Notes under the pieces: generated by a model
The model's database searches: none
Seen by the model: the letters and a program-made list of their open reading frames with translations, nothing else
What the model was told of the DNA's origin: nothing
In this document: positions 16,893 to 52,154 of the stretch, one piece after another
Layout: the number at the start of each line of letters is the position of its first letter
Numbering within the stretch: the stretch's first letter is position 1
Translations under genes and position numbers: made by a program
Virus record (IMG/VR): IMGVR_UViG_3300022689_000130
Span: 1-64,000 of that record
Origin: a virus
Direction: 5' to 3' (one strand)
DNA length: 64,000 nt

Positions 16893-17078
16893 AGTGTTGA
16901 CTATATTTTGTTTTCACAACGTATAGTGCGCTGATATCTTATACTAGATATAGTTGCGTCTATCCCGTCTTCAATGTTTATTTAGCTACTTGCTAAGTTT
17001 CATCATTAAAAATAGCATATATCTTATTGATTGTAAAAGGTTTTTTGTATCTGAATTAGTAACTTTAAAAACCCACAA

Positions 17079-17750
17079 TCAAAGCTGATAATATTGTGCA
17101 ACCCTACTCGCTGCCTCATTAACATAAAAGTTATACTCATCACCAGTAATTTCAAACATTTGAAATTCACAATCTCTTGAACACATAAAAATAGCAACTG
17201 TTTTTATGTCTGTTCCGAACAAATAATTGTGTGCTTCTGCGTAAAGACATCCTTGAGCAAAATAATCAGTTATCCATTCTTTCTTTTTTGGTTTGTTGGT
17301 TTGTTTGAAATCAAAAATAGCTGGTGATCCTTTCCACACTCCGGCTCCATCAGCCGTGCCAGCATAAAGTCCTGGATTATATAAAGAGACTTCTGATCCC
17401 CAAGCTTCATCTAGGTGTGATTCAATGTTTTCAACCACAGTTTCTGCCATGCGATTGGCAGTAATATTGAGCATGTTCTTACCAGGTGTCCATCCGCCCT
17501 TCAACAGCCAGTCTTCGAGAAACCCGTGCATAAGTGTCCCTACATTGGCTGCTTCTTTCGTGATACGTGCTGCTTCTTCATGCCCAACACGATTGCGCCA
17601 CTCGTTCAACTTTTCAACGGCTTCGGCTGGCTTGGTCTTATCAAGGATGGTTGTTACGCTGGGGAGAAATCCGCTCTCGGTGTCATAGAGCCGCTTTCCT
17701 TCAACGCGAGTGCGTTTTATTTCCTGGTAAGGATATCTTTCAATGATCAT
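17079..17750 (-). CDS. PD-(D/E)xK exonuclease (Cas4/RecB-like)
   Basis: LPSVTTIL, GTLMH, E..L...YAGTAD, IFDFKQT, Q...Y. Confidence 0.88.
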   Translation of the reverse strand: MIIERYPYQEIKRTRVEGKRLYDTESGFLPSVTTILDKTKPAEAVEKLNEWRNRVGHEEAARITKEAANVGTLMHGFLEDWLLKGGWTPGKNMLNITANRMAETVVENIESHLDEAWGSEVSLYNPGLYAGTADGAGVWKGSPAIFDFKQTNKPKKKEWITDYFAQGCLYAEAHNYLFGTDIKTVAIFMCSRDCEFQMFEITGDEYNFYVNEAASRVAQYYQL

Positions 17751-17798: not shown

Positions 17799-18239
17799 TT
17801 ATCTTCTAAATGGCGAGCGCTGTCCTGGATACCAAAATTCGCCATTGAGGATATCTTCGATATATTCCTCGAGCTGCTCCTGTTTCATATCGAGTTCTTG
17901 TGACAAAATATAGTCAGCAATCATCTTACTATATTTTTGACTTTTACCCAAATGGCCCAGGTGTGCTGAGACAAGCATTCTTACATATTTCTCGTCTTGG
18001 TTGGTAAAATACTTTTGCTCATAAGCTTCATCCATAAATGCTGATTCAGCTAATTCTTTAATCTGGCCCATAGCTGCCATGATCGCTGATTGAACACCTT
18101 CTTCAACGTCATCATCTAGTCTCATACCTGGAATTTGTTCAAGCAATCCTTCAAGATGTTCTATAATATCACTTACATCATTACCTGTTGATTCTTGAAC
18201 TTTTGTTCCAGCTAGTTGTCGTAGTCTGTTAATGTCCAT
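17799..18239 (-). CDS. Acidic protein with RLxxLAG leader (putative internal head protein)
   Basis: Starts MDINRLRQLAGTKVQE. Confidence 0.7.
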   Translation of the reverse strand: MDINRLRQLAGTKVQESTGNDVSDIIEHLEGLLEQIPGMRLDDDVEEGVQSAIMAAMGQIKELAESAFMDEAYEQKYFTNQDEKYVRMLVSAHLGHLGKSQKYSKMIADYILSQELDMKQEQLEEYIEDILNGEFWYPGQRSPFRR

Positions 18240-18243
18240 TTGG

Positions 18244-18555
18244 TTACTCCGGGTTATGTGGAATGCTCGTATTCGCTTTTGGTCTTATTTCATAATCAGT
18301 ACAGCCAGCCAATACGCTATTGTTACGAAATTTCTTATCATAACGTCCGACTCGCTTAGATCTAAGCATGACACGATCGACGTATGCTCTGGCTGCTTCT
18401 TCACTATCAAACGTAGCTACCACTTGTTCATCTGTGTTTGTTTCACCAGTATAACCACCATAGCCATATTCGGGTTCGTCAGTGATTCCAACCAGCTCAT
18501 AAATCTCTCCACTTTCACGAATGCCAGAAAGTGATTTTAGTCTACCAATATCCAC
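18244..18555 (-). CDS. Protein with RLxxLSG leader (putative internal head protein)
   Basis: Starts MDIGRLKSLSGIRE (GTG start). Confidence 0.7.
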   Translation of the reverse strand: MDIGRLKSLSGIRESGEIYELVGITDEPEYGYGGYTGETNTDEQVVATFDSEEAARAYVDRVMLRSKRVGRYDKKFRNNSVLAGCTDYEIRPKANTSIPHNPE

Positions 18556-18556
18556 C

Positions 18557-18889
18557 TTACCATCCTCTACGTAGATCTGAACGACGATCCATTTCAGTGT
18601 CGCCAGCGTCTAGATCGTCGAAATAATCAGGATCTAGGTCATCGTCCTCATCTTCATCTTCGTCACCATATAGATCATCTTCACCTGTTGGTAGCTCGTT
18701 TGCGTGGGCCATGTCACGAACATCATCTTTACTCATATATTTGAGGCAAGCATCTGCGACTGTGCGTGGATCAAGAATGCCTTCATCCATCATGGTGTGT
18801 AGTGCATTGGTTACCTGACGTACGTCTTCTTCAATCTCGACCGATTCGTTGAGTATACCTGCTAGTTGTTGTAGTCTGTTAATATCCAT
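18557..18889 (-). CDS. Acidic protein with RLxxLAG leader (putative internal head protein)
   Basis: Starts MDINRLQQLAGILNE. Confidence 0.7.
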   Translation of the reverse strand: MDINRLQQLAGILNESVEIEEDVRQVTNALHTMMDEGILDPRTVADACLKYMSKDDVRDMAHANELPTGEDDLYGDEDEDEDDDLDPDYFDDLDAGDTEMDRRSDLRRGW

Positions 18890-18904
18890 ATCTTTTCTCT
18901 CTAA

Positions 18905-19216
18905 TTACACTGATTCAACACTACCGAGCGTATCAATTGCTTCATCTGGCAAGAAAAACTCTTCTTTTTCTCCAATGAGAGTGTTATAAATCAAAATAGT
19001 CATACCACCAGCTGCTCGTACGCCAATAATATTTCCTCTATCATTTAATACAATGGTATCGGGTATTTCATTTTCTTGTGGTCCAAGAACAGGCTGGCCT
19101 CTGCGTCCTTTATTACGCTCGATCCCTGCTTCAGTGCTTGCGTCAAAACCCTCAAAAAGATTGGTTTTGTGTGTATCATTCATTCCAGAAAGTTGTCTTA
19201 ATCTATCGATATCCAT
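18905..19216 (-). CDS. Protein with RLxxLSG leader (putative internal head protein)
   Basis: Start reassigned to MDIDRLRQLSG...NLFE. Confidence 0.7.
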   Translation of the reverse strand: MDIDRLRQLSGMNDTHKTNLFEGFDASTEAGIERNKGRRGQPVLGPQENEIPDTIVLNDRGNIIGVRAAGGMTILIYNTLIGEKEEFFLPDEAIDTLGSVESV

Positions 19217-19224
19217 TAATTTCC

Positions 19225-19845
19225 CTACCAGTAAATTTCCCACTTGATAACTGATGTGTCACTGTCAGTGTTTTTCTTTGCCAGGATGCTGTAACCAAGT
19301 CCTTGAAAATGATTAACAACCTGTGACAATTCATATGATTTCTTACGATCTTCATTTACACCTAACCAAACCTGATAGTATTCAACTGATTCTGGGTTGG
19401 TTGCATCGTAGGTCTGTGCTGTTATACCAACAGTTGCATTAGCAGAATCTGCACTAACAATAAGGTTCCATCCATTCTGTGGAGTTTCGTATGTGAGGAC
19501 TAGTTGATTGCTCGCGTTTTTGCTGGCTACTAAGCCTGCTGGACCATCATCGTTTATGATTCCGATAATTTGATTTAAGTCAGAGTTTGCTGGCAATGAT
19601 ATAGTAGTGGCTGCAATTGTCAATGATTCACCCGTGACACCAACAGTTGGATTAGCTTCTGTGCCAGTAATAGTAATGACTGGTGTGCTTTCTGTCATCG
19701 TTGTACCGTTATCAACAGTAGCAGTTAGGTTTCCTAACAGCGCCTGTTCCATGATTTTACGCTGGATTGCGTCAATCTCGTTGTAAATTACAAGATCTGA
19801 TGTTGATAACTGTCGCGCCTCAGGCCCTGTTAGCTCATATGTCAT
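19225..19845 (-). CDS. Probable virion structural protein
   Basis: 206 aa, Thr/Ala-rich insert, in late gene cluster. Confidence 0.55.
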   Translation of the reverse strand: MTYELTGPEARQLSTSDLVIYNEIDAIQRKIMEQALLGNLTATVDNGTTMTESTPVITITGTEANPTVGVTGESLTIAATTISLPANSDLNQIIGIINDDGPAGLVASKNASNQLVLTYETPQNGWNLIVSADSANATVGITAQTYDATNPESVEYYQVWLGVNEDRKKSYELSQVVNHFQGLGYSILAKKNTDSDTSVIKWEIYW

Positions 19846-21753: not shown

Positions 21754-21999
21754 TTAGAATCCTTGGTTGATGTTGCGCTTGTAGTAAATTCCGCGATCAC
21801 CGTCACTGAATCTTTGTAGAATACCTCTACTAGTTAGCACTTTGGCCATCTCTGCTTGGCGTTCATCCATCTCATCCTTGTAGGCAGTCTCGTTAATTGT
21901 GTTAAGGAAATTGTATTCCTCGCTGGATACAAAAGTTGGTATACCGCCTTTTGTTACAACAGATCTCATTATGCTATTCCTGCCCGGCGCTTGAGCCAC
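21754..21999 (-). CDS. Hypothetical protein
   Basis: ORF in operon; true start probably MRSVVTK at 21969. Confidence 0.7.
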   Translation of the reverse strand: MAQAPGRNSIMRSVVTKGGIPTFVSSEEYNFLNTINETAYKDEMDERQAEMAKVLTSRGILQRFSDGDRGIYYKRNINQGF

Positions 22000-23762
22000 T
22001 CTTGCATTTGGATGACTTTTTGTTCCGGATTTTCGTAACGATGTTCGAAATACATGTCCAAATCAACGCCATATTCTTTAGCTAGCTCTTTTGCTTGAGA
22101 TAGGATTTCCCATTCGTCTTCATGGCTCATACCAGCCATAGCTGCTTGGTAGCGGTCGGCCATGTCGCGGATAATTGATTCAGCACCACTTTTGTCTAGC
22201 TTTTCTTCATACATGTCCTTGAATCCAGCGGCACCCAAAGCATAGTCTACATCTTCACGGTTGGTGGCGCGCATGTCAGGCTCACGTAGTATGTCCTCAA
22301 TATCACTCATGTCCACACTGTCTGGATAGCTCTGGCGGATGCGGTTTGCAAGGCGCTCAAGTGATGCTAGGTGTTCATCGTCTGCTATCTGTAGCAATGC
22401 ACGAATGACTTCTTTTGAGTTCCACTGCTCACCTGATCCTTCGTTTATTGATTCATCTTTGTAACCCAAATCGTCATGCAAGTGATCATATTCGTCATCG
22501 CCATAATGGCGACGTAGATCATTCTCTTCTTCGTCACTGTCAGCATAGTCGTTGAGATCAAGTTCATGTGGTTCAAAGTCCATTGCGAAATCATGATTGT
22601 AAAGGCGAACAGTTACACTATTAGGACGTGCTGACATAACTATACCGGTTTCGCCTTCCCATTCGCCGCTCGTAACAATGACGTCATCATTATGATCAAA
22701 GGAACCCTTCTTTGCTTCATGGACCGGATCCATGCCATGTTCCTTAGCAATGTCAATTGTGGTTTTGATAAGTTCATCCATGGTGCGGTAAACGTTGTCT
22801 TTGTTTTGACGGAGAGCTCTGTCGGCTTCGGCAAGGACACTTTCAACATCATTCAAATCAACGTCCCACAAGTCAACAATTCGATCATAAACGAAAACAA
22901 CCGCTGATGTCATGAACCCGTCATACACATAGCTGAATCCATATTCTGTGTTTTTCCAGTTGTCAAACAGTGGTCCCCAGCCAGCCTTTTCCATTGCTTG
23001 CTTAAAGACTTGGTAAGGCTTCTTTTTCTTGTGCATTGAATAATCAAGTGGGCCCTCTTTAAGAGGATAGCCAGCTAGTTCAGCAATACGATTAATTTCT
23101 GCAATTGATTCGTCTTTATACATTAGTTTTGCGTTTGCTGCGTCAGCTTCATCATCATAAACGTCATCATATGAATCAATCTCAGACTGTGCATGAGCAT
23201 ATCCATCATTCCACTCTTCATGTTCTTCAGTACCCTCAGGGTATGGATTTAAATCATCAAATCCATTACCAGTATAAGCACGGTGACCTTCCCAGTAAGG
23301 CCCTTCCATTCCATCTGATTCTTCAACGGGTTGATCATCTTGCATCACTGCATCTGGATCGTCTTCACTGTCAACGTTCTGTGTGCTTACGCCGTTTTGC
23401 ACACCGCCACTGTAATTGCTGCTCTGTGCTGTCTTTGATTGGCTCGACTGATCTCTTGCTGGTGCTTTTTTGGTTTTATTAGGGGCAGGGCGGGTTGCGG
23501 CGGCGCTGGTTGGTTTACGTGGCGAACTGTTACCCATGCTATATTCTAATTGTGGCAGCGGACCAAGTATTGCACTTACCTCGGCGCGATCGCCTGCTGT
23601 ATATGCATCGTTAAGAGCCAGAATATCGCTTAAACTCAAACGATCAACAATCTCATCAAGCTGAGGTTCATCAAGCTCTTCATGAAACATCGTATTTACC
23701 ATGTTTTGAATTGCGTCATGTAACGTGCTGTTTGTTTTGTCTATTGATTCAAAAAGTTTCAT
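21969..23762 (-). CDS. Modular acidic polyprotein-like protein with RMF-like and KOW modules
   Basis: MKLFE start; modules separated by hydrophobic-x-E sites; internal RIAELAG and C-terminal WLKRRAGI. Confidence 0.6.
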   Translation of the reverse strand: MKLFESIDKTNSTLHDAIQNMVNTMFHEELDEPQLDEIVDRLSLSDILALNDAYTAGDRAEVSAILGPLPQLEYSMGNSSPRKPTSAAATRPAPNKTKKAPARDQSSQSKTAQSSNYSGGVQNGVSTQNVDSEDDPDAVMQDDQPVEESDGMEGPYWEGHRAYTGNGFDDLNPYPEGTEEHEEWNDGYAHAQSEIDSYDDVYDDEADAANAKLMYKDESIAEINRIAELAGYPLKEGPLDYSMHKKKKPYQVFKQAMEKAGWGPLFDNWKNTEYGFSYVYDGFMTSAVVFVYDRIVDLWDVDLNDVESVLAEADRALRQNKDNVYRTMDELIKTTIDIAKEHGMDPVHEAKKGSFDHNDDVIVTSGEWEGETGIVMSARPNSVTVRLYNHDFAMDFEPHELDLNDYADSDEEENDLRRHYGDDEYDHLHDDLGYKDESINEGSGEQWNSKEVIRALLQIADDEHLASLERLANRIRQSYPDSVDMSDIEDILREPDMRATNREDVDYALGAAGFKDMYEEKLDKSGAESIIRDMADRYQAAMAGMSHEDEWEILSQAKELAKEYGVDLDMYFEHRYENPEQKVIQMQEWLKRRAGIA

Positions 23763-47451: not shown

Positions 47452-47895
47452 CTATTTATTCCATTCGCGTATTTCAACATCAAAATTTTTCGCCTTGATG
47501 CGATCGACTACATGCGACAGGTATTTTTGTCCCATCACAGTTGAACTACTACGCTTAATTGCTTTATTTTGATTTCTAGCATAGTCAACCGCAGCTTGAT
47601 AGAGTTCACTAGCTAATCCGCGATTACGATAATCTTCGTCTACTATAACGTGTTTAAGCCAAAATTCTCTATCGTCATACGGATTCAGCTCTAATGCAAG
47701 ACTAGAAACAACACGCCGTCCATCAAAATGTACCAAATGTATTTCGTTATTCATATCTCCTGGATTCAGATATTGAAGACGATTGAATACATCCGGATTT
47801 GCATCTTCGTTACGATTGATGAACAAATGCAAATCAGCGCCTGCTAGCATGTTCAGACGCAAATCATCATTTTCAAACAGATGGCGATATCTCAT
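47452..47895 (-). CDS. GNAT acetyltransferase with N-terminal tag
   Basis: Motif A VDEDYRNRGLASELY; starts MRYRHLFE. Confidence 0.88.
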   Translation of the reverse strand: MRYRHLFENDDLRLNMLAGADLHLFINRNEDANPDVFNRLQYLNPGDMNNEIHLVHFDGRRVVSSLALELNPYDDREFWLKHVIVDEDYRNRGLASELYQAAVDYARNQNKAIKRSSSTVMGQKYLSHVVDRIKAKNFDVEIREWNK

Positions 47896-48983
47896 TACAA
47901 GAATCCTACCGGCATAGGACGTCTTAGATCGGTATCGTCAAAGCTGTCTTTTAAATCATCAAATGCATCCGGATCATAACGTGCTACCTGCATAGCCATT
48001 CGGACTGCTAACAGAGTCGACATAACCAAATCGTCCGTTTCTCCTTCTTTAGCCTTATAGCTATTTCCTTGAGCGACGAATGTTTTAAGTTCACGGGTAA
48101 GATTTTTACTGCGAATTTTCATAGTTCCTTCTTCAACCCATCGTTTTAGTTTTGAGCAGGCAGCAAGCTTTGTTGAATGCGTTGTGTTAAATCCTTTGCG
48201 GAAGCGTCTTACATTACCACGACGTCTTGGTTCGCTAAGAAAGATACCTGGCAAGTTCTCTTCACCCATTTCATCAATAGAAACCAAAGCTGCTTCTCCC
48301 AATGTATTATTTTCTACCGAGTAATAAATTTCACTATTTGGTGCTGCCTCTTCGATTTCTTCCAGTATACTTTTCAAAATTTTAATTTGTCCTTGAATCG
48401 GCGTCTTGTTATGCTGCCACTCACCAATCTGACGCATACTGGGCAGAGCAAAAATTTCGATTGCGGCCGGGTCGCCTCCTGTTCCTAAACTAGGATCAAG
48501 TGCTACCAAATAAGTTTGGTTATCCTGTAGTGTATCATACCATCTAATCTGTCCGGAGCGCCGCATTGGTTCCATTCCCAAATCCATTTCAGAAAGAAAA
48601 ATTGGATTAATAAGCGTTTCATCGAATGCAATGAACTCACAGTTCGAAACAAGAATGTCGTTTCCATAAAATCGATTGCCGTCATCTACTCCAATTAAGT
48701 CGTATACCGGTTCAATTCTTCCTGTATAATCTGCAGATGTAACAGTAAGAGGTTCGCCTAATGCTGAAACTTGATCACCAACAACAAACGTGTCTGCAAA
48801 GCGTTTATTACCATCTACGTCGTAGATTCCATGATTGTCTGTGCATTCAATAAAAGTTCCATTATCAAATTCAATTCGATATATAGGCCGATCACCCATA
48901 GATGCAACACCTTTAAAGTGTTGATATCCATTAGGCGTTAATACTTTTAAATTTTTCTTGTTCTCTTTGAAAATCTGCGTCAT
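47895..48983 (-). CDS. Terminase large subunit C-terminal half preceded by 114-aa split intein C fragment
   Basis: IntC MTQIFK...CTDNH...VYDL...ILVSN then extein CEFIAFD; nuclease motifs LDPSLGTGGD, VENN, TDDLVM. Confidence 0.92.
   Translation of the reverse strand: MTQIFKENKKNLKVLTPNGYQHFKGVASMGDRPIYRIEFDNGTFIECTDNHGIYDVDGNKRFADTFVVGDQVSALGEPLTVTSADYTGRIEPVYDLIGVDDGNRFYGNDILVSNCEFIAFDETLINPIFLSEMDLGMEPMRRSGQIRWYDTLQDNQTYLVALDPSLGTGGDPAAIEIFALPSMRQIGEWQHNKTPIQGQIKILKSILEEIEEAAPNSEIYYSVENNTLGEAALVSIDEMGEENLPGIFLSEPRRRGNVRRFRKGFNTTHSTKLAACSKLKRWVEEGTMKIRSKNLTRELKTFVAQGNSYKAKEGETDDLVMSTLLAVRMAMQVARYDPDAFDDLKDSFDDTDLRRPMPVGFL
48642..48983 (-). mobile_element. Split intein C fragment (114 aa)
   Basis: Block B TxxH (TDNH), block F VYDL, terminal SN followed by +1 Cys. 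Confidence 0.9.
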
Positions 48984-50010
48984 CTTCTAGTATCCTATAC
49001 GTATATTTATTTTCAAAGAGCCATAATTGAAATCTATAACCTTGATCAATTACTGCATCGCGCTTGCGAAAATTATTGGTTAGTCTTGATTCATATCTCG
49101 GATCTAAGTTGCCATTCCACCACCATACACTTTTCACTTCAATGATTAAGTTTTCAGTTGGAATATAGATGTCTGGGTAATATTTCCATTTGTGTTGATT
49201 GACATTAATATATTCAAATAATGGTAAATTATATTTTGTTTTTCTTTGTCGATTATCAATAATCAATTCATCTTCATTATATTTTTTTAATAATTCATCT
49301 AATACTAGATTTTCATATCCACGAATACCAATTACTTTTCCAGATGGCAGTATGTAATCGCGTCCTTCATTATTTTTCTTTGCTGCTAATTTCTGAGTTT
49401 CTTTGTTAAATGTATTTTCAACTCCATATCGTTTAAAAGTTGTTTTGCGGCGCTTATCATTTATTTCATTCTGCTCTTGAATTGATTTGTTTCGATTCTT
49501 TTCTGCAGATTTTTCCCAACCTGCATAATATTCATTACCATATTTTGCTAATTTCGTTTGTCGCGACTTTTCTTTGTATTCACTTGACTGTGTCGCCCAG
49601 GGCACCCCATATTTTTCTTGAAAAGTTTTTGATGCTTTTTTCTTTTGCCGTTCAATTTGTTCTGGTGTTCGTTTAGCTGCGGCTTTGATCTTATTGATAC
49701 TGTCTTGTTGGCGTTGTTCGTCTGTCCAACCTTGCTTTGTAGCAGCTACAGAAGTGCCTACACATTTGGGATCACCACAGCTATTAGCATATGATTCACT
49801 TTTTTGATAAAATGTCAGAGGCTTCAAACATGAACACAGAGGAGTGATTTGTTTTTCATATATCTCATAATAGTCTTTATATGTGAGATCATGTTTGCGT
49901 AGATGTCTAGTAAATTGTCCGTTTGTTTTGCAGTATGATTGATTGTCAATTTTGCTTGTAATATAGATTGTTTGTTTCATAGTGCTTTCATTTAAATGTT
50001 TCTTCTCCAA
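48931..50010 (-). mobile_element. Free-standing homing endonuclease between terminase halves
   Basis: AT-rich; KYG/RYG repeats, CxC...CxxxxC, YYPDIY...IIEVKS PD-(D/E)xK core. Confidence 0.85.
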
Positions 50011-50916
50011 CTATTTATCTATTGTTTCAAACAAATCTCCAATTTCTATTTCATATTCTGTATTTCCGTCACTTATTTTCAAAAGTGTTGCGCTGTTACA
50101 ACACTCGTGCTCACGGCGAAATCTCTCGTCACCAATTTTAGCACGTTCGTTATCAGCCCATTCTTGGTCGCGCTCTGGATGTTGATCCCATTTGACCAAA
50201 TATGGACGAAATCCATTGATGCCTAGTTCTGTTTCATTTCCAAATTCATCAACATTCTTGTTAGCCTGCTTCCAAATCTGAGCAAATTGGTCGTCATCTT
50301 GGTTTGGGGTTGAAGTGATAATACATTTACCACCAGTTGATAATGTTGGTGAAATAGAAGTCCAAAATTCTTGTGCGACACGAGGCGGCACAAATGCAAA
50401 TTCGTCCAAGTAAACTAGTGAAAGCGACAAACCACGGCCAGTATTTTCGGTTGTGGCTTGTGCAACAATTTTGCTGCCGTTATCGAACTCGATGGAGCCT
50501 TTGTTATATGCTGTCACGCCCGCCCTGACATAGTCAGGACAACTCTCATACATATAACGCAGGCGTGTCATGATTTCCTGCGCGCCCTCACGCTTGTGTG
50601 CTGCTACAAGAATTGTGCTGTCTGGCTTGAACATCGCAAACCATAATAGATATGCTGCCGCGCAAGTTGACTTACCTGTCTGACGACTAAGCAAACTGAT
50701 TGAGTATCGATAATCGTTGTAGCTGTTGATCAAGCCTTCTTGATAGTCGAACAGCTTAAAAGGCATGCGACCTTTGGTAGGGTGCTGAATAAAACAGTGG
50801 TTACGGATAAAATGCAGTGGATTAATTGTACAGAGCGCTAACTCCTGCAACTCCGTCTGTGACATCTTTTCCGTTGTATACGGGCGTTTGACTAAGTCTG
50901 TGTTTACAGTATTCAC
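50011..50916 (-). CDS. Terminase large subunit N-terminal ATPase half ending in a 30-aa split intein N fragment
   Basis: LFDYQ, SRQTGKS, YLDEFAF, ITSTPN; ends FRREHE then CCNSATLLKISDGNTEYEIEIGDLFETIDK. Confidence 0.93.
   Translation of the reverse strand: MNTVNTDLVKRPYTTEKMSQTELQELALCTINPLHFIRNHCFIQHPTKGRMPFKLFDYQEGLINSYNDYRYSISLLSRQTGKSTCAAAYLLWFAMFKPDSTILVAAHKREGAQEIMTRLRYMYESCPDYVRAGVTAYNKGSIEFDNGSKIVAQATTENTGRGLSLSLVYLDEFAFVPPRVAQEFWTSISPTLSTGGKCIITSTPNQDDDQFAQIWKQANKNVDEFGNETELGINGFRPYLVKWDQHPERDQEWADNERAKIGDERFRREHECCNSATLLKISDGNTEYEIEIGDLFETIDK
50014..50103 (-). mobile_element. Split intein N fragment (30 aa)
   Basis: Block A C-x4-T and I.I.DL motif. Confidence 0.88.
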
Positions 50917-50919
50917 ACC

Positions 50920-51459
50920 TTACTCCTGAGGAAGGTGGACCCTCGCATAATAGTCTGCTTCTTCAAGAGCACGATAAAGATCTTCAAGTGCCTTGCGGAC
51001 TTCATGCAAGCCTGATGGATCTCCACCAATTGACTTGATTGACTTCTCCATAAACCCACCACGCTTGTAGGTATTTTCTAGACGCTCAACCAATTCCATG
51101 TGCTTACCCATATGCTGTTGAATGCCTTCGCCAGTAGCTTCATTTACACGGTTTTCTGGAAATGCCTCTGATACTTTGTGTTGTGGATCATGACGATCTT
51201 CCATACCTGGCTTAAATTCAAATTCATCACCATCGTCACCTACTGCATACCAAGCACCTTCAGTCCAATCACCACTGTCAGTTAGTGGTTTTCCTTCTTC
51301 CCATTCAAGATTCCAACCAAGGCCACGATAGGTAATACTGTCACCTTCAGTGTAAGTGCCATCTGTCCATTTATCATCAACCATTTGTGCTCGAGACATT
51401 TTTTCACAGATTGCTACTCGAGGCAATCCAGCTAGTTCACGTAGACGACGACTTGACAT
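50920..51459 (-). CDS. Protein with RLxxLAG leader (putative internal head protein)
   Basis: Starts MSSRRLRELAG; internal ICE, VSE, VNE sites. Confidence 0.7.
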   Translation of the reverse strand: MSSRRLRELAGLPRVAICEKMSRAQMVDDKWTDGTYTEGDSITYRGLGWNLEWEEGKPLTDSGDWTEGAWYAVGDDGDEFEFKPGMEDRHDPQHKVSEAFPENRVNEATGEGIQQHMGKHMELVERLENTYKRGGFMEKSIKSIGGDPSGLHEVRKALEDLYRALEEADYYARVHLPQE

Positions 51460-52154
51460 TATTTCTTCCCCTTGAAGTTTTTGTATTCACGGAGCATACT
51501 TTCTTCAGTGTGGTCTTCTTCGATTTTTACTGGCATCGCGTCCGCATCCAAATAACGACGAAGGCTGAGATCTACTGTTTCACCGTCTGGCTGCTCTTGA
51601 TAGTGTCCACGATCATCATATTGCTTATAGATCGAATTGGCCCACTCACGCATTGTCTGTGCTTCAGTATTGCTTGCTTCGTCTGCCTTTTCTTTGTCCT
51701 TAGCAGCTTTTTTCATGCTTTCTTTTTCATCACCATCGCCATCAATGTCAGCAAAATCCGGTTTGCTTTCTTCAAGACTTTGTTCGCTTATCTGCATGAT
51801 CTCTGGCTTTGCATTTGCAGTTGGATCTTTGAACCGACTGAAAATTGCACGAGCAATTGCGCGAGCTTCATTTTTTGAACTGGTAGTAACAATCAGCTCT
51901 TCATTAGCCCAACCAATATCATCATATTTAAATCCCTGGCTTGAAAGGTAATCATAAACCTTGTCACTCACGTCACGCAATGTGCGCATAGTGACTTTCC
52001 ATCCTTCGCTTTCAGTTAATGTGCGATTTGATTCCATAAGACTATTACGAATCTCATACATATTCTTTCGTGATTGGTCTGCAACATATTGCAGAGCAGG
52101 CGCATTACCTGCTAGCTGACGCAGTCTATCTAATGTATTCTTATCCATTGTCAT
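51459..52154 (-). CDS. Protein with RLxxLAG leader (putative prohead core protein)
   Basis: DRLRQLAG; LME/LTE/LEE sites; KPDFADIDGDGDEKESMKKA motif. Confidence 0.7.
   Translation of the reverse strand: MTMDKNTLDRLRQLAGNAPALQYVADQSRKNMYEIRNSLMESNRTLTESEGWKVTMRTLRDVSDKVYDYLSSQGFKYDDIGWANEELIVTTSSKNEARAIARAIFSRFKDPTANAKPEIMQISEQSLEESKPDFADIDGDGDEKESMKKAAKDKEKADEASNTEAQTMREWANSIYKQYDDRGHYQEQPDGETVDLSLRRYLDADAMPVKIEEDHTEESMLREYKNFKGKK

What the first reader, a model, noticed from the sequence alone, without database searches (positions are those of the whole stretch)
17799..19216. Tandem array of four unrelated genes sharing an 11-aa MDIxRLxxL[AS]G leader (tag class 2)
Seen: MDINRLRQLAG, MDIGRLKSLSG, MDINRLQQLAG and MDIDRLRQLSG, each followed within 3-10 aa by hydrophobic-x-E (VQE, IRE, LNE, LFE) and then an unrelated body. 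The leader DNA is near-identical in two copies (ATGGA[CT]ATTAACAGACTAC[GA]ACAACTAGC). The motif recurs at 51459 (RRLRELAG), near 52154 (DRLRQLAG) and inside the 597-aa protein (RIAELAG; C-terminal WLKRRAGI). Inference: a second, amphipathic-helix docking tag that binds the capsid or scaffold interior; the shared leader DNA could also act as a recombination handle for swapping cargo cassettes. I do not know of a functional description of this motif.
Basis: partly seen in the sequence, partly recalled or inferred. Interest (0 to 1): 0.8.

Follow-up and report, generated by a model that had tools for sequence, protein, structure and literature searches.

The report
Capsid-loading leader copied from scaffold tail
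Four neighbouring small genes of an uncultured giant T4-like phage begin with the same 11-residue peptide, which copies the conserved tail of the phage's own scaffolding protein and is followed by a head-protease cutting site, so it is most likely an address label that loads swappable cargo proteins into the virus head.

Summary
Four tandem minus-strand genes (17799-19216) start with MDIxRLxxL[AS]G followed by a (L/I/V)-x-E site, and their bodies show no detectable similarity. The window is part of a 145-kb fragment of a jumbo T4-like phage of the RaK2/PA5oct/GAP32 group, which encodes a gp21-family prohead protease.

The main new result is that the leader matches the C-terminal tail of the phage's own scaffolding protein (…ELKKLAGLS*). 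That tail is kept in 68 of 68 metagenomic relatives, in about two thirds of 150 distant representatives, and in PA5oct, RaK2, 121Q, GAP32, Atu_ph07 and Vibrio phage 2.275.O.

In PA5oct, GAP32 and 121Q, proteins that carry the motif are recorded as virion proteins (by ESI-MS/MS in PA5oct).

The locus between a conserved virion gene and an exonuclease holds 0, 1, 2, 3, 4 or 6 leader genes in different relatives, in shuffled order. DNA homology blocks break inside the leader.

Best reading (about 0.7): this is a second kind of T4-style capsid-targeting sequence that borrows the scaffold's docking helix and is removed by the prohead protease, on a cassette-swapping cargo locus. Packaging, cleavage and the binding partner are all untested.

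The scan has noted CTS-like leaders in other jumbo phages, and the scaffold-tail resemblance once in this genome (e1-5783200).

The parts
18905..19216 (-). Cassette D: leader (codons 1-11), putative cut after E22 (L-F-E), 81-aa body
   Evidence: Orthologue at 62% identity in G001. Body weakly like Salicola phage SCTP-2 gene 68, which carries a different, class-1-like leader. Weak hit to phrog_4363 'internal virion protein'.
18557..18889 (-). Cassette C: leader, putative cut after E15 (L-N-E), three-helix body, acidic tract, conserved C-terminal tail
   Evidence: 23 homologues were found. Some lack the leader, and others share the leader and tail but have a different middle part.
18244..18555 (-). 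Cassette B (GTG start): leader, putative cut after E14 (I-R-E), 89-aa body
   Evidence: A 90%-identical orthologue in L242 lies at a different position in the array.
17799..18239 (-). Cassette A: leader, putative cut after E16 (V-Q-E), a unique helical module of about 64 aa fused to the body of a shorter cassette found in relatives
   Evidence: Only residues 60-133 match the 93-94-aa 'A-short' genes of L239 and L242.
18205..18238 (-). Leader DNA repeat, copy 1 of 4 (others at 18521-18554, 18855-18888, 19182-19215)
   Evidence: The conserved Arg uses codon AGA in 9 of 10 leaders, against 16% genome usage.
19225..19845 (-). Upstream anchor gene (206 aa), likely virion protein
   Evidence: Aligns with PA5oct EST35_0239, an ESI-MS/MS virion protein. 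It is conserved next to the array in all relatives.
17079..17750 (-). Downstream anchor gene, exonuclease
   Evidence: phrog_298, E 9e-48. Conserved flank in G001, G002, G004, L239, L242, PA5oct and Vibrio phage 2.275.O.
50920..51459 (-). Further leader gene E (179 aa), directly upstream of the terminase large subunit
   Evidence: Same position as the leader genes PA5oct EST35_0203 and Atu_ph07 gp111.
51459..52154 (-). Further leader gene F (231 aa); motif starts at residue 10
   Evidence: Leader-bearing counterpart in G001.
21969..23762 (-). 597-aa protein with one internal copy of the motif between two x-x-E sites and a scaffold-like C-terminal tail (…KRRAGIA*)
   Evidence: The tail variant RAG[IL] also occurs in true scaffold homologues (P0030, P0146, P0148).
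47452..47895 (-). GNAT-like protein with a class-1 leader followed by a degenerate copy of the motif (weak member)

Best explanation
The 11-residue leader is a prohead-targeting peptide. It is a transposed copy of the short amphipathic helix that ends the phage's gp22-like scaffolding protein.

Proposed mechanism:
- During prohead assembly the leader occupies the same docking site as the scaffold tail. That site is on the inner face of the gp23-like capsid protein or on the scaffolding core.
- The attached small protein is therefore built into the core.
- The gp21-family prohead protease then cuts at the (L/I/V)-x-E site a few residues after the leader. This frees the body inside the head, from where it is probably ejected with the DNA, as T4 internal proteins are.
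- The four genes form a cassette array. The shared roughly 35-nt leader DNA marks, and probably mediates, the crossovers that add, remove and reorder cassettes.

Shown: the motif, its N-terminal restriction, the adjacent cut-site-like motif, the match to the scaffold tail, the protease gene, the locus variability and the breakpoints.

Inferred: binding, packaging, cleavage, ejection and the role of the bodies.
For: - Four tandem leaders, and seven N-terminal copies in 145 kb.
- The strict motif is absent from protein interiors, and a cut-site motif follows in 26 of 35 leaders against a 9.7% background.
- The genome encodes Peptidase_S77/gp21 (E 5e-23), a gp23 capsid protein and a 374-aa scaffold between them.
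- The scaffold ends in φxxφ[RK]xLAG[LI]. This tail is present in 68 of 68 IMG/VR relatives, in 101 of 150 representatives at 31-76% identity with near-variants among the rest, and in six isolates.
- In Vibrio phage 2.275.O the tail reads almost exactly like the leader.
- AF2 models agree. The scaffold has a 38-residue disordered linker and then a terminal helix at 361-370. Cassette C has a leader helix at 3-9, a disordered stretch at 10-19 holding the cut site, and then a folded body.
- Virion records in isolates: PA5oct EST35_0203 (N-terminal copy followed by V-K-E, plus two internal copies) and EST35_0235 (internal copy) are ESI-MS/MS virion proteins. GAP32_207 and 121Q gp560, each with two copies, are annotated as structural proteins (PMC7318152).
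- Atu_ph07 gp111 has the N-terminal leader.
- The flanking genes are orthologues of PA5oct virion proteins.
- The locus holds 0 to 6 cassettes in shuffled order, and homology blocks end in the leader.
- Some homologues of C lack the leader, so leader and body are separable modules.
- Precedent: the T4 capsid-targeting sequence and its diverse internal proteins (PMC9958956, PMC3012670, PMC9026906).
Against: - There are no virion, N-terminal or binding data for this phage or for any protein of the array.
- The specificity of this group's protease is assumed from T4.
- A few leaders lack a canonical site nearby: the A-short genes have K-T-E, one L239 gene has none within 12 residues, and F has its site at +18.
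- Leader and scaffold tail share a core of only about 7 positions, and they do not co-vary. The scaffold tail is invariant in the clade while the leaders vary.
- E and F show no homology to PA5oct EST35_0203 beyond the motif.
- BLAST alignments run into the next leader whatever mechanism moved the cassettes, so the breakpoints do not prove leader-mediated recombination.
Confidence: 0.7

Rival explanations
1. The leader does target the proteins to the prohead, but the small proteins are auxiliary core or scaffold components, like T4 gp67 and gp68. The protease degrades them and they are expelled. They are not delivered cargo.
For: C has a long acidic tract and many x-x-E sites, like T4 core proteins. 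Several cassettes in relatives are 60-80-aa helical hairpins. No body has any enzymatic or defence-related signature.
Against: Core components should be conserved, yet the locus is empty in PA5oct and in Vibrio phage 2.275.O and differs in every relative. Motif-bearing proteins of PA5oct, GAP32 and 121Q persist in mature virions.
Confidence: 0.15
2. The motif is a general-purpose amphipathic interaction or localisation helix, for example for oligomerisation, membrane binding or chaperone binding. Its likeness to the scaffold tail would then be coincidental, and the proteins are not encapsidated.
For: The shared core is short. The bodies are unknown. No packaging data exist for this phage.
Against: The motif is restricted to N-termini, scaffold-type C-termini and virion-module proteins. 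It is followed by a protease-site motif far above background. Carriers are virion proteins in three isolates. The array sits in an operon-like run directly after two virion-protein genes.
Confidence: 0.07
3. The four genes are fast-diverged tandem paralogues. On this view the leader is conserved for a nucleic-acid-level reason, such as a translation-initiation region or RNA element, and not as a peptide signal.
For: The same codons recur: AGA for Arg in 9 of 10 leaders, and A-rich Leu codons. The genes are tightly packed with short spacers.
Against: Synonymous differences are tolerated while the peptide is kept. The same peptide occurs internally and C-terminally in other proteins. Bodies are conserved at 62-90% between genomes yet unalignable with each other. 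Predicted architectures also differ.
Confidence: 0.05

Closest known systems
Phage T4 capsid-targeting sequence (CTS) and internal proteins IPI, IPII, IPIII and Alt, with the polymorphic IP loci of T-even phages
   Same: A short N-terminal leader sits on otherwise unrelated small proteins and ends at a gp21-type (L/I)-x-E site. The phage has a gp21-family protease. The locus varies in number, identity and order of genes between relatives (PMC9958956, PMC3012670, PMC9026906; Repoila et al. 1994, pmid 8076614, recalled from memory because the paper is not held).
   Different: The peptide is unrelated in sequence to the T4 CTS. Here it has an identifiable source, the scaffold's own C-terminal tail, which the T4 reviews do not report for the CTS. 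A T4-like 'class 1' leader coexists in the same genome. The motif also works as an internal or C-terminal element in related phages.
Herpesvirus scaffold (pre-VP22a / UL26.5) and protease precursor (UL26) sharing one C-terminal capsid-protein-binding tail
   Same: A second protein is carried into the procapsid because it bears the scaffold's terminal docking helix, and the maturation protease then releases it (own knowledge, not tested here).
   Different: In herpesviruses the sharing comes from nested in-frame genes and concerns one protein. Here the peptide is transposed to the N-terminus of many unrelated genes.
P22 scaffolding-protein C-terminal coat-binding domain, also used as an engineered encapsulation tag
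   Same: A tethered terminal helical element of a scaffold binds the coat interior, and a fusion to it loads foreign cargo (own knowledge).
   Different: In P22 it is a helix-turn-helix of about 30 residues, there is no proteolysis, and cargo loading is man-made, not natural.
Encapsulin cargo-loading peptides
   Same: A short conserved terminal peptide on diverse cargo docks on the inner face of an HK97-fold shell (own knowledge).
   Different: The peptides are usually C-terminal, they are not removed, and the cellular nanocompartments have no scaffold or protease.
Propeptides of phiKZ/SPN3US head and ejection proteins
   Same: Jumbo-phage head proteins are processed by a gp21-related protease at x-x-E motifs (PMC5694885, PMC7411985).
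   Different: Those propeptides are long and heterogeneous. No short shared leader matching a scaffold tail has been described for them.

Membership tests
T4-type CTS / internal-protein system | Short conserved N-terminal leader on otherwise unrelated proteins | tested here: met
T4-type CTS / internal-protein system | Leader ends at a prohead-protease (L/I)-x-E site | tested here: met
   Met at the sequence level only: 26 of 35 leaders against a 9.7% background. Actual cleavage cannot be tested here.
T4-type CTS / internal-protein system | Genome encodes a gp21-family prohead protease with gp22/gp23-type head genes | tested here: met
   PF03420 E 5e-23 and PF07068 E 3e-86.
T4-type CTS / internal-protein system | Leader sequence homologous to the T4 CTS | tested here: not met
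   The class-2 leader shows no likeness to the T4 CTS as I recall it (M-K-T-Y-Q-E-F-I-A-E, from memory). So it works like a CTS but is not the same peptide.
T4-type CTS / internal-protein system | Proteins are packaged in the head and ejected | not testable with these tools
   Indirect only: motif carriers in PA5oct, GAP32 and 121Q are recorded as virion proteins.
T4-type CTS / internal-protein system | Locus polymorphic in number, order and identity of genes among relatives | tested here: met
   0, 1, 2, 3, 4 or 6 cassettes, in shuffled order.
Scaffold C-terminal docking element (P22 / herpesvirus type) | Conserved terminal element of the scaffolding protein, tethered by a flexible linker | tested here: met
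Scaffold C-terminal docking element (P22 / herpesvirus type) | Element binds the major capsid protein | not testable with these tools
   No complex prediction or experiment was available.

The most novel reading that the evidence does not exclude
In the whole RaK2/PA5oct/GAP32/Atu_ph07 supergroup of jumbo T4-like phages, one short helix (φxxφ+xL[AS]Gφ) is a portable capsid address that works regardless of its position in the protein. It is the scaffold's own docking tail, and it has been copied to N-termini, interiors and C-termini of cargo proteins. This would give the first sequence-level explanation of how proteins are sorted into a T4-type scaffolding core. In the window's clade the address has seeded a rapidly shuffling array of ejected effector cassettes, possibly anti-defence proteins.
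Probability: 0.4. Interest if true: 0.75.

Novelty: new variant of a known kind. Interest (0 to 1): 0.62.

Why it matters
[quoted passage not shown] Here the targeting peptide can be traced to a specific conserved element of the scaffold. That gives a concrete, testable model: cargo competes with, or sits alongside, the scaffold tail at one docking site and is released by the same protease.

It also defines a short natural tag that could be used to load proteins into the very large heads of cultivable relatives (PA5oct, Atu_ph07, RaK2, 121Q).

Finally, it marks a hypervariable locus whose small proteins are good candidates for early-acting, injected host-takeover or anti-defence factors.

Tried and rejected
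- Megablast of the region against GenBank phages gave no match.
- Pfam gave nothing for the four proteins. PHROGs gave only a weak 'internal virion protein' hit for D.
- Relatives fetched through the exonuclease (about 50% identity) lack the leader, so they are too distant to be informative.
- A single-protein search with the 206-aa anchor found only one locus.
- My first DNA pattern for a collection scan had too few fixed bases. The stricter pattern found eight contigs.
- My first motif scans of PA5oct missed EST35_0203 because its copy is shifted by one residue relative to my regular expression. A looser scan and the synteny found it.
- T4 late-promoter and sigma-70/terminator scans were uninformative.
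- ESM Atlas gave no usable function for B or D.
- tblastn of C against phages found nothing, and D gave only a marginal SCTP-2 hit.
- No paper in the library holds the motif strings.
- PA5oct supplementary tables and Repoila et al. 1994 are not held.
- I looked for co-variation between leader and scaffold tail and found none, because the tail is identical in the three clade genomes that hold it.
- I considered and rejected homology of E or F to PA5oct EST35_0203.

Full report
**What the window is.** All long ORFs lie on the minus strand. The window is the first 64 kb of a 144,664-bp IMG/VR virus record that CheckV estimates to be 39% complete. The record encodes a T4-type head module outside the window:
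- portal;
- a gp21-family protease (PF03420, E 5e-23, record 73473-74108);
- a 374-aa scaffold (record 72346-73470);
- a gp23-type capsid protein (PF07068, E 3e-86, record 71170-72333).

The capsid protein is 68-70% identical to those of Vibrio phage 2.275.O, Sinorhizobium phage Phosso, Pseudomonas phage PA5oct and Cronobacter phage GAP32. The phage is therefore an uncultured member of the RaK2-like jumbo T4-related supergroup.

**The observation.** Genes A (17799-18239), B (18244-18555), C (18557-18889) and D (18905-19216) each begin M-D-I-x-R-L-x-x-L-[AS]-G. A hydrophobic-x-E follows, ending at residue 16, 14, 15 and 22 respectively.
- The leader DNA is a 34-nt direct repeat in four copies.
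- The bodies are not alignable with each other (best BLASTP E 0.06) and have no Pfam match.
- The longer GTG frame of D only re-reads the 3' end of the upstream gene, as the relatives show.
- Further N-terminal copies lie at 51459, 52154 and, more weakly, 47895. The 597-aa protein has an internal copy and a related C-terminal tail.
- In four related genome fragments the strict motif never occurs beyond residue 25 in 136,018 residues.
- 26 of 35 distinct leaders have [LIVMF]-x-E ending 3-7 residues after the Gly, against 9.7% at random positions. The residue after the E is most often Ser.

**The scaffold tail.** A note on this genome (e1-5783200) pointed to the scaffold C-terminus. I confirmed that the scaffold ends …I-I-E-L-K-K-L-A-G-L-S* and then tested how general this is.
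- All 68 scaffolds found upstream of capsid genes in IMG/VR relatives end in φ-x-[RK]-[RK]-L-A-G-[LI] plus 0-2 residues.
- Of 150 representatives of 50%-identity clusters (31-76% identical to the query; 737 clusters at E ≤ 0.001), 101 fit a strict tail pattern. Most of the rest are fragments or near-variants such as R-A-G-I.
- The tail is present in PA5oct, Vibrio phage 2.275.O, RaK2, 121Q, GAP32 and Atu_ph07.
- In the Vibrio phage it reads M-D-L-D-R-L-T-K-I-A-G-I, which is practically the leader itself.
- Among GenBank phages this scaffold family is confined to 96 jumbo records.
- L370, A371 and G372 are among the few nearly invariant columns of a 60-sequence alignment.
- AF2 gives a very long helix, a 38-residue disordered linker and a terminal helix at 361-370. 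For cassette C it gives a leader helix at 3-9, a disordered stretch at 10-19 with the cut site, a three-helix body and a disordered acidic tail.

Leader and tail are therefore the same kind of object: a short amphipathic helix capped by A-G on a flexible tether.

**Virion association in cultured relatives.**
- PA5oct EST35_0203 starts with a copy of the motif followed by V-K-E-S and has two internal copies.
- PA5oct EST35_0235 has one internal copy followed by V-D-E.
- Both carry the ESI-MS/MS virion note. The paper reports 93 gene products linked to virion particles by that method (PMC7318152).
- GAP32_207 and 121Q gp560 are acidic proteins with two copies each and are annotated as structural proteins. 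The Vibrio phage orthologue has three copies.
- Atu_ph07 gp111 begins M-D-I-E-R-L-K-I-L-A-G and lies just upstream of the terminase, as do window gene E and PA5oct EST35_0203.
- The genes flanking the array (302, 136, 247, 112 and 206 aa) correspond to PA5oct EST35_0231, 0234, 0237, 0238 and 0239, all virion proteins.
- RaK2's capsid protein migrates below its predicted mass, which fits proteolytic maturation in this group (PMC3622015).

**The locus is a cassette array.** The region between the 206-aa gene and the exonuclease holds different contents in each genome:

| Genome | Contents |
|---|---|
| Window | D-C-B-A |
| G001 | D'-x73-x83-x80-C'-x84 |
| L239 | A-short, C, y94 |
| L242 (346-kb contig) | B', C'', a 63-aa duplicate of the anchor gene's 3' end, A-short, z69 |
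| G002 | two other genes |
| G004 | one gene |
| PA5oct, Vibrio phage 2.275.O | none |

- Orthologous bodies are 62-90% identical, whereas non-orthologous ones share only the leader.
- In blastn, seven block ends that abut a different downstream cassette fall 8-41 nt into the next gene. Blocks for C and B start at, or within 10 nt upstream of, their start codons.
- Window A is a fusion: leader, a unique module of about 64 aa, then the A-short body.
- Some homologues of C lack the leader. Others keep C's leader and C-terminal tail around a different middle part.
- Elsewhere in IMG/VR the exact leader heads proline-rich repeat proteins and other bodies.
- The conserved Arg is AGA in 9 of 10 leaders against 16% genome usage. 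This fits common descent of the leader DNA, although A-rich codons near start codons are also expected on translational grounds.

**Interpretation.** The closest established system is the T4 capsid-targeting sequence. That is a roughly 10-residue N-terminal peptide sufficient to load proteins into the scaffolding core, removed by gp21, and attached to a diverse set of internal proteins that vary between T-even phages (PMC9958956, PMC3012670, PMC9026906). The present leader works like a CTS on every feature testable in silico, but it is a different peptide.

Unlike the T4 CTS, it has an evident origin in the scaffold's terminal helix. By analogy with P22, phi29 and herpesvirus scaffolds (own knowledge), that helix is the likely contact with the capsid shell or core. 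I commit to this model at about 0.7.

What the bodies do after packaging is unknown. They could be ejected effectors, as in T4, or expendable core components.

**Limits.** Nothing physical has been measured for this phage. The protease specificity is borrowed from T4, the binding partner is inferred, and the breakpoints are compatible with leader-mediated recombination but do not prove it.

**Earlier notes in this scan.** The scan has already described CTS-like leaders in several other jumbo phages. The new point here is the link to the scaffold tail and its breadth.

Noticed in passing
window 18557-18889; alignment A1: The C family has a second conserved module, a roughly 22-residue C-terminal tail after an acidic tract. 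Six homologues (P0016-P0020, P0023) share both the leader and this tail but have a different middle part. So cassettes may have conserved elements at both ends.
   Followed up: partly
L242:6395-6586: A 63-aa ORF between two cassettes duplicates the 3' end of the upstream 206-aa anchor gene. It looks like a footprint of the recombination event that brought in the next cassette.
   Followed up: partly
window 47895-50916: The terminase large subunit is split into two ORFs (50011-50916 and 47895-48983), with a 359-aa ORF (48931-50010) between or overlapping them. PA5oct has one continuous gene (EST35_0204). This may be an intron, intein or homing-endonuclease insertion.
   Followed up: no
record G000 72346-73470 (outside the window): The scaffold's N-terminus (short helix 3-10, then I-L-T-E) resembles the genome's 'class 1' T4-like leaders, while its C-terminus matches the class-2 leader. 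Both tag classes may therefore imitate the two ends of the scaffold.
   Followed up: partly
GenBank records listed: The scaffold of this phage group is annotated variously as hypothetical protein, Rad50 ATPase, tape-measure protein, kinectin or sigma-1. Only a few records call it a scaffolding protein.
   Followed up: no
Vibrio phage 2.275.O (MG592671.1), ORF starting at 17071: A 111-aa ORF in the syntenic virion module ends with a scaffold-like tail (…I-S-R-L-A-G-V plus five residues). This is another case of the motif at a C-terminus outside the scaffold.
   Followed up: no
L245:3929-4207 (Salicola phage SCTP-2 gene 68): Its body is about 30% identical over 66 residues to cassette D, but it starts with a class-1-like leader ending L-I-K-E. 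If the homology is real, the two leader classes are interchangeable on one body.
   Followed up: partly
window 18244-18555: Cassette B starts with GTG here, but its 90%-identical orthologue in L242 starts with ATG.
   Followed up: no
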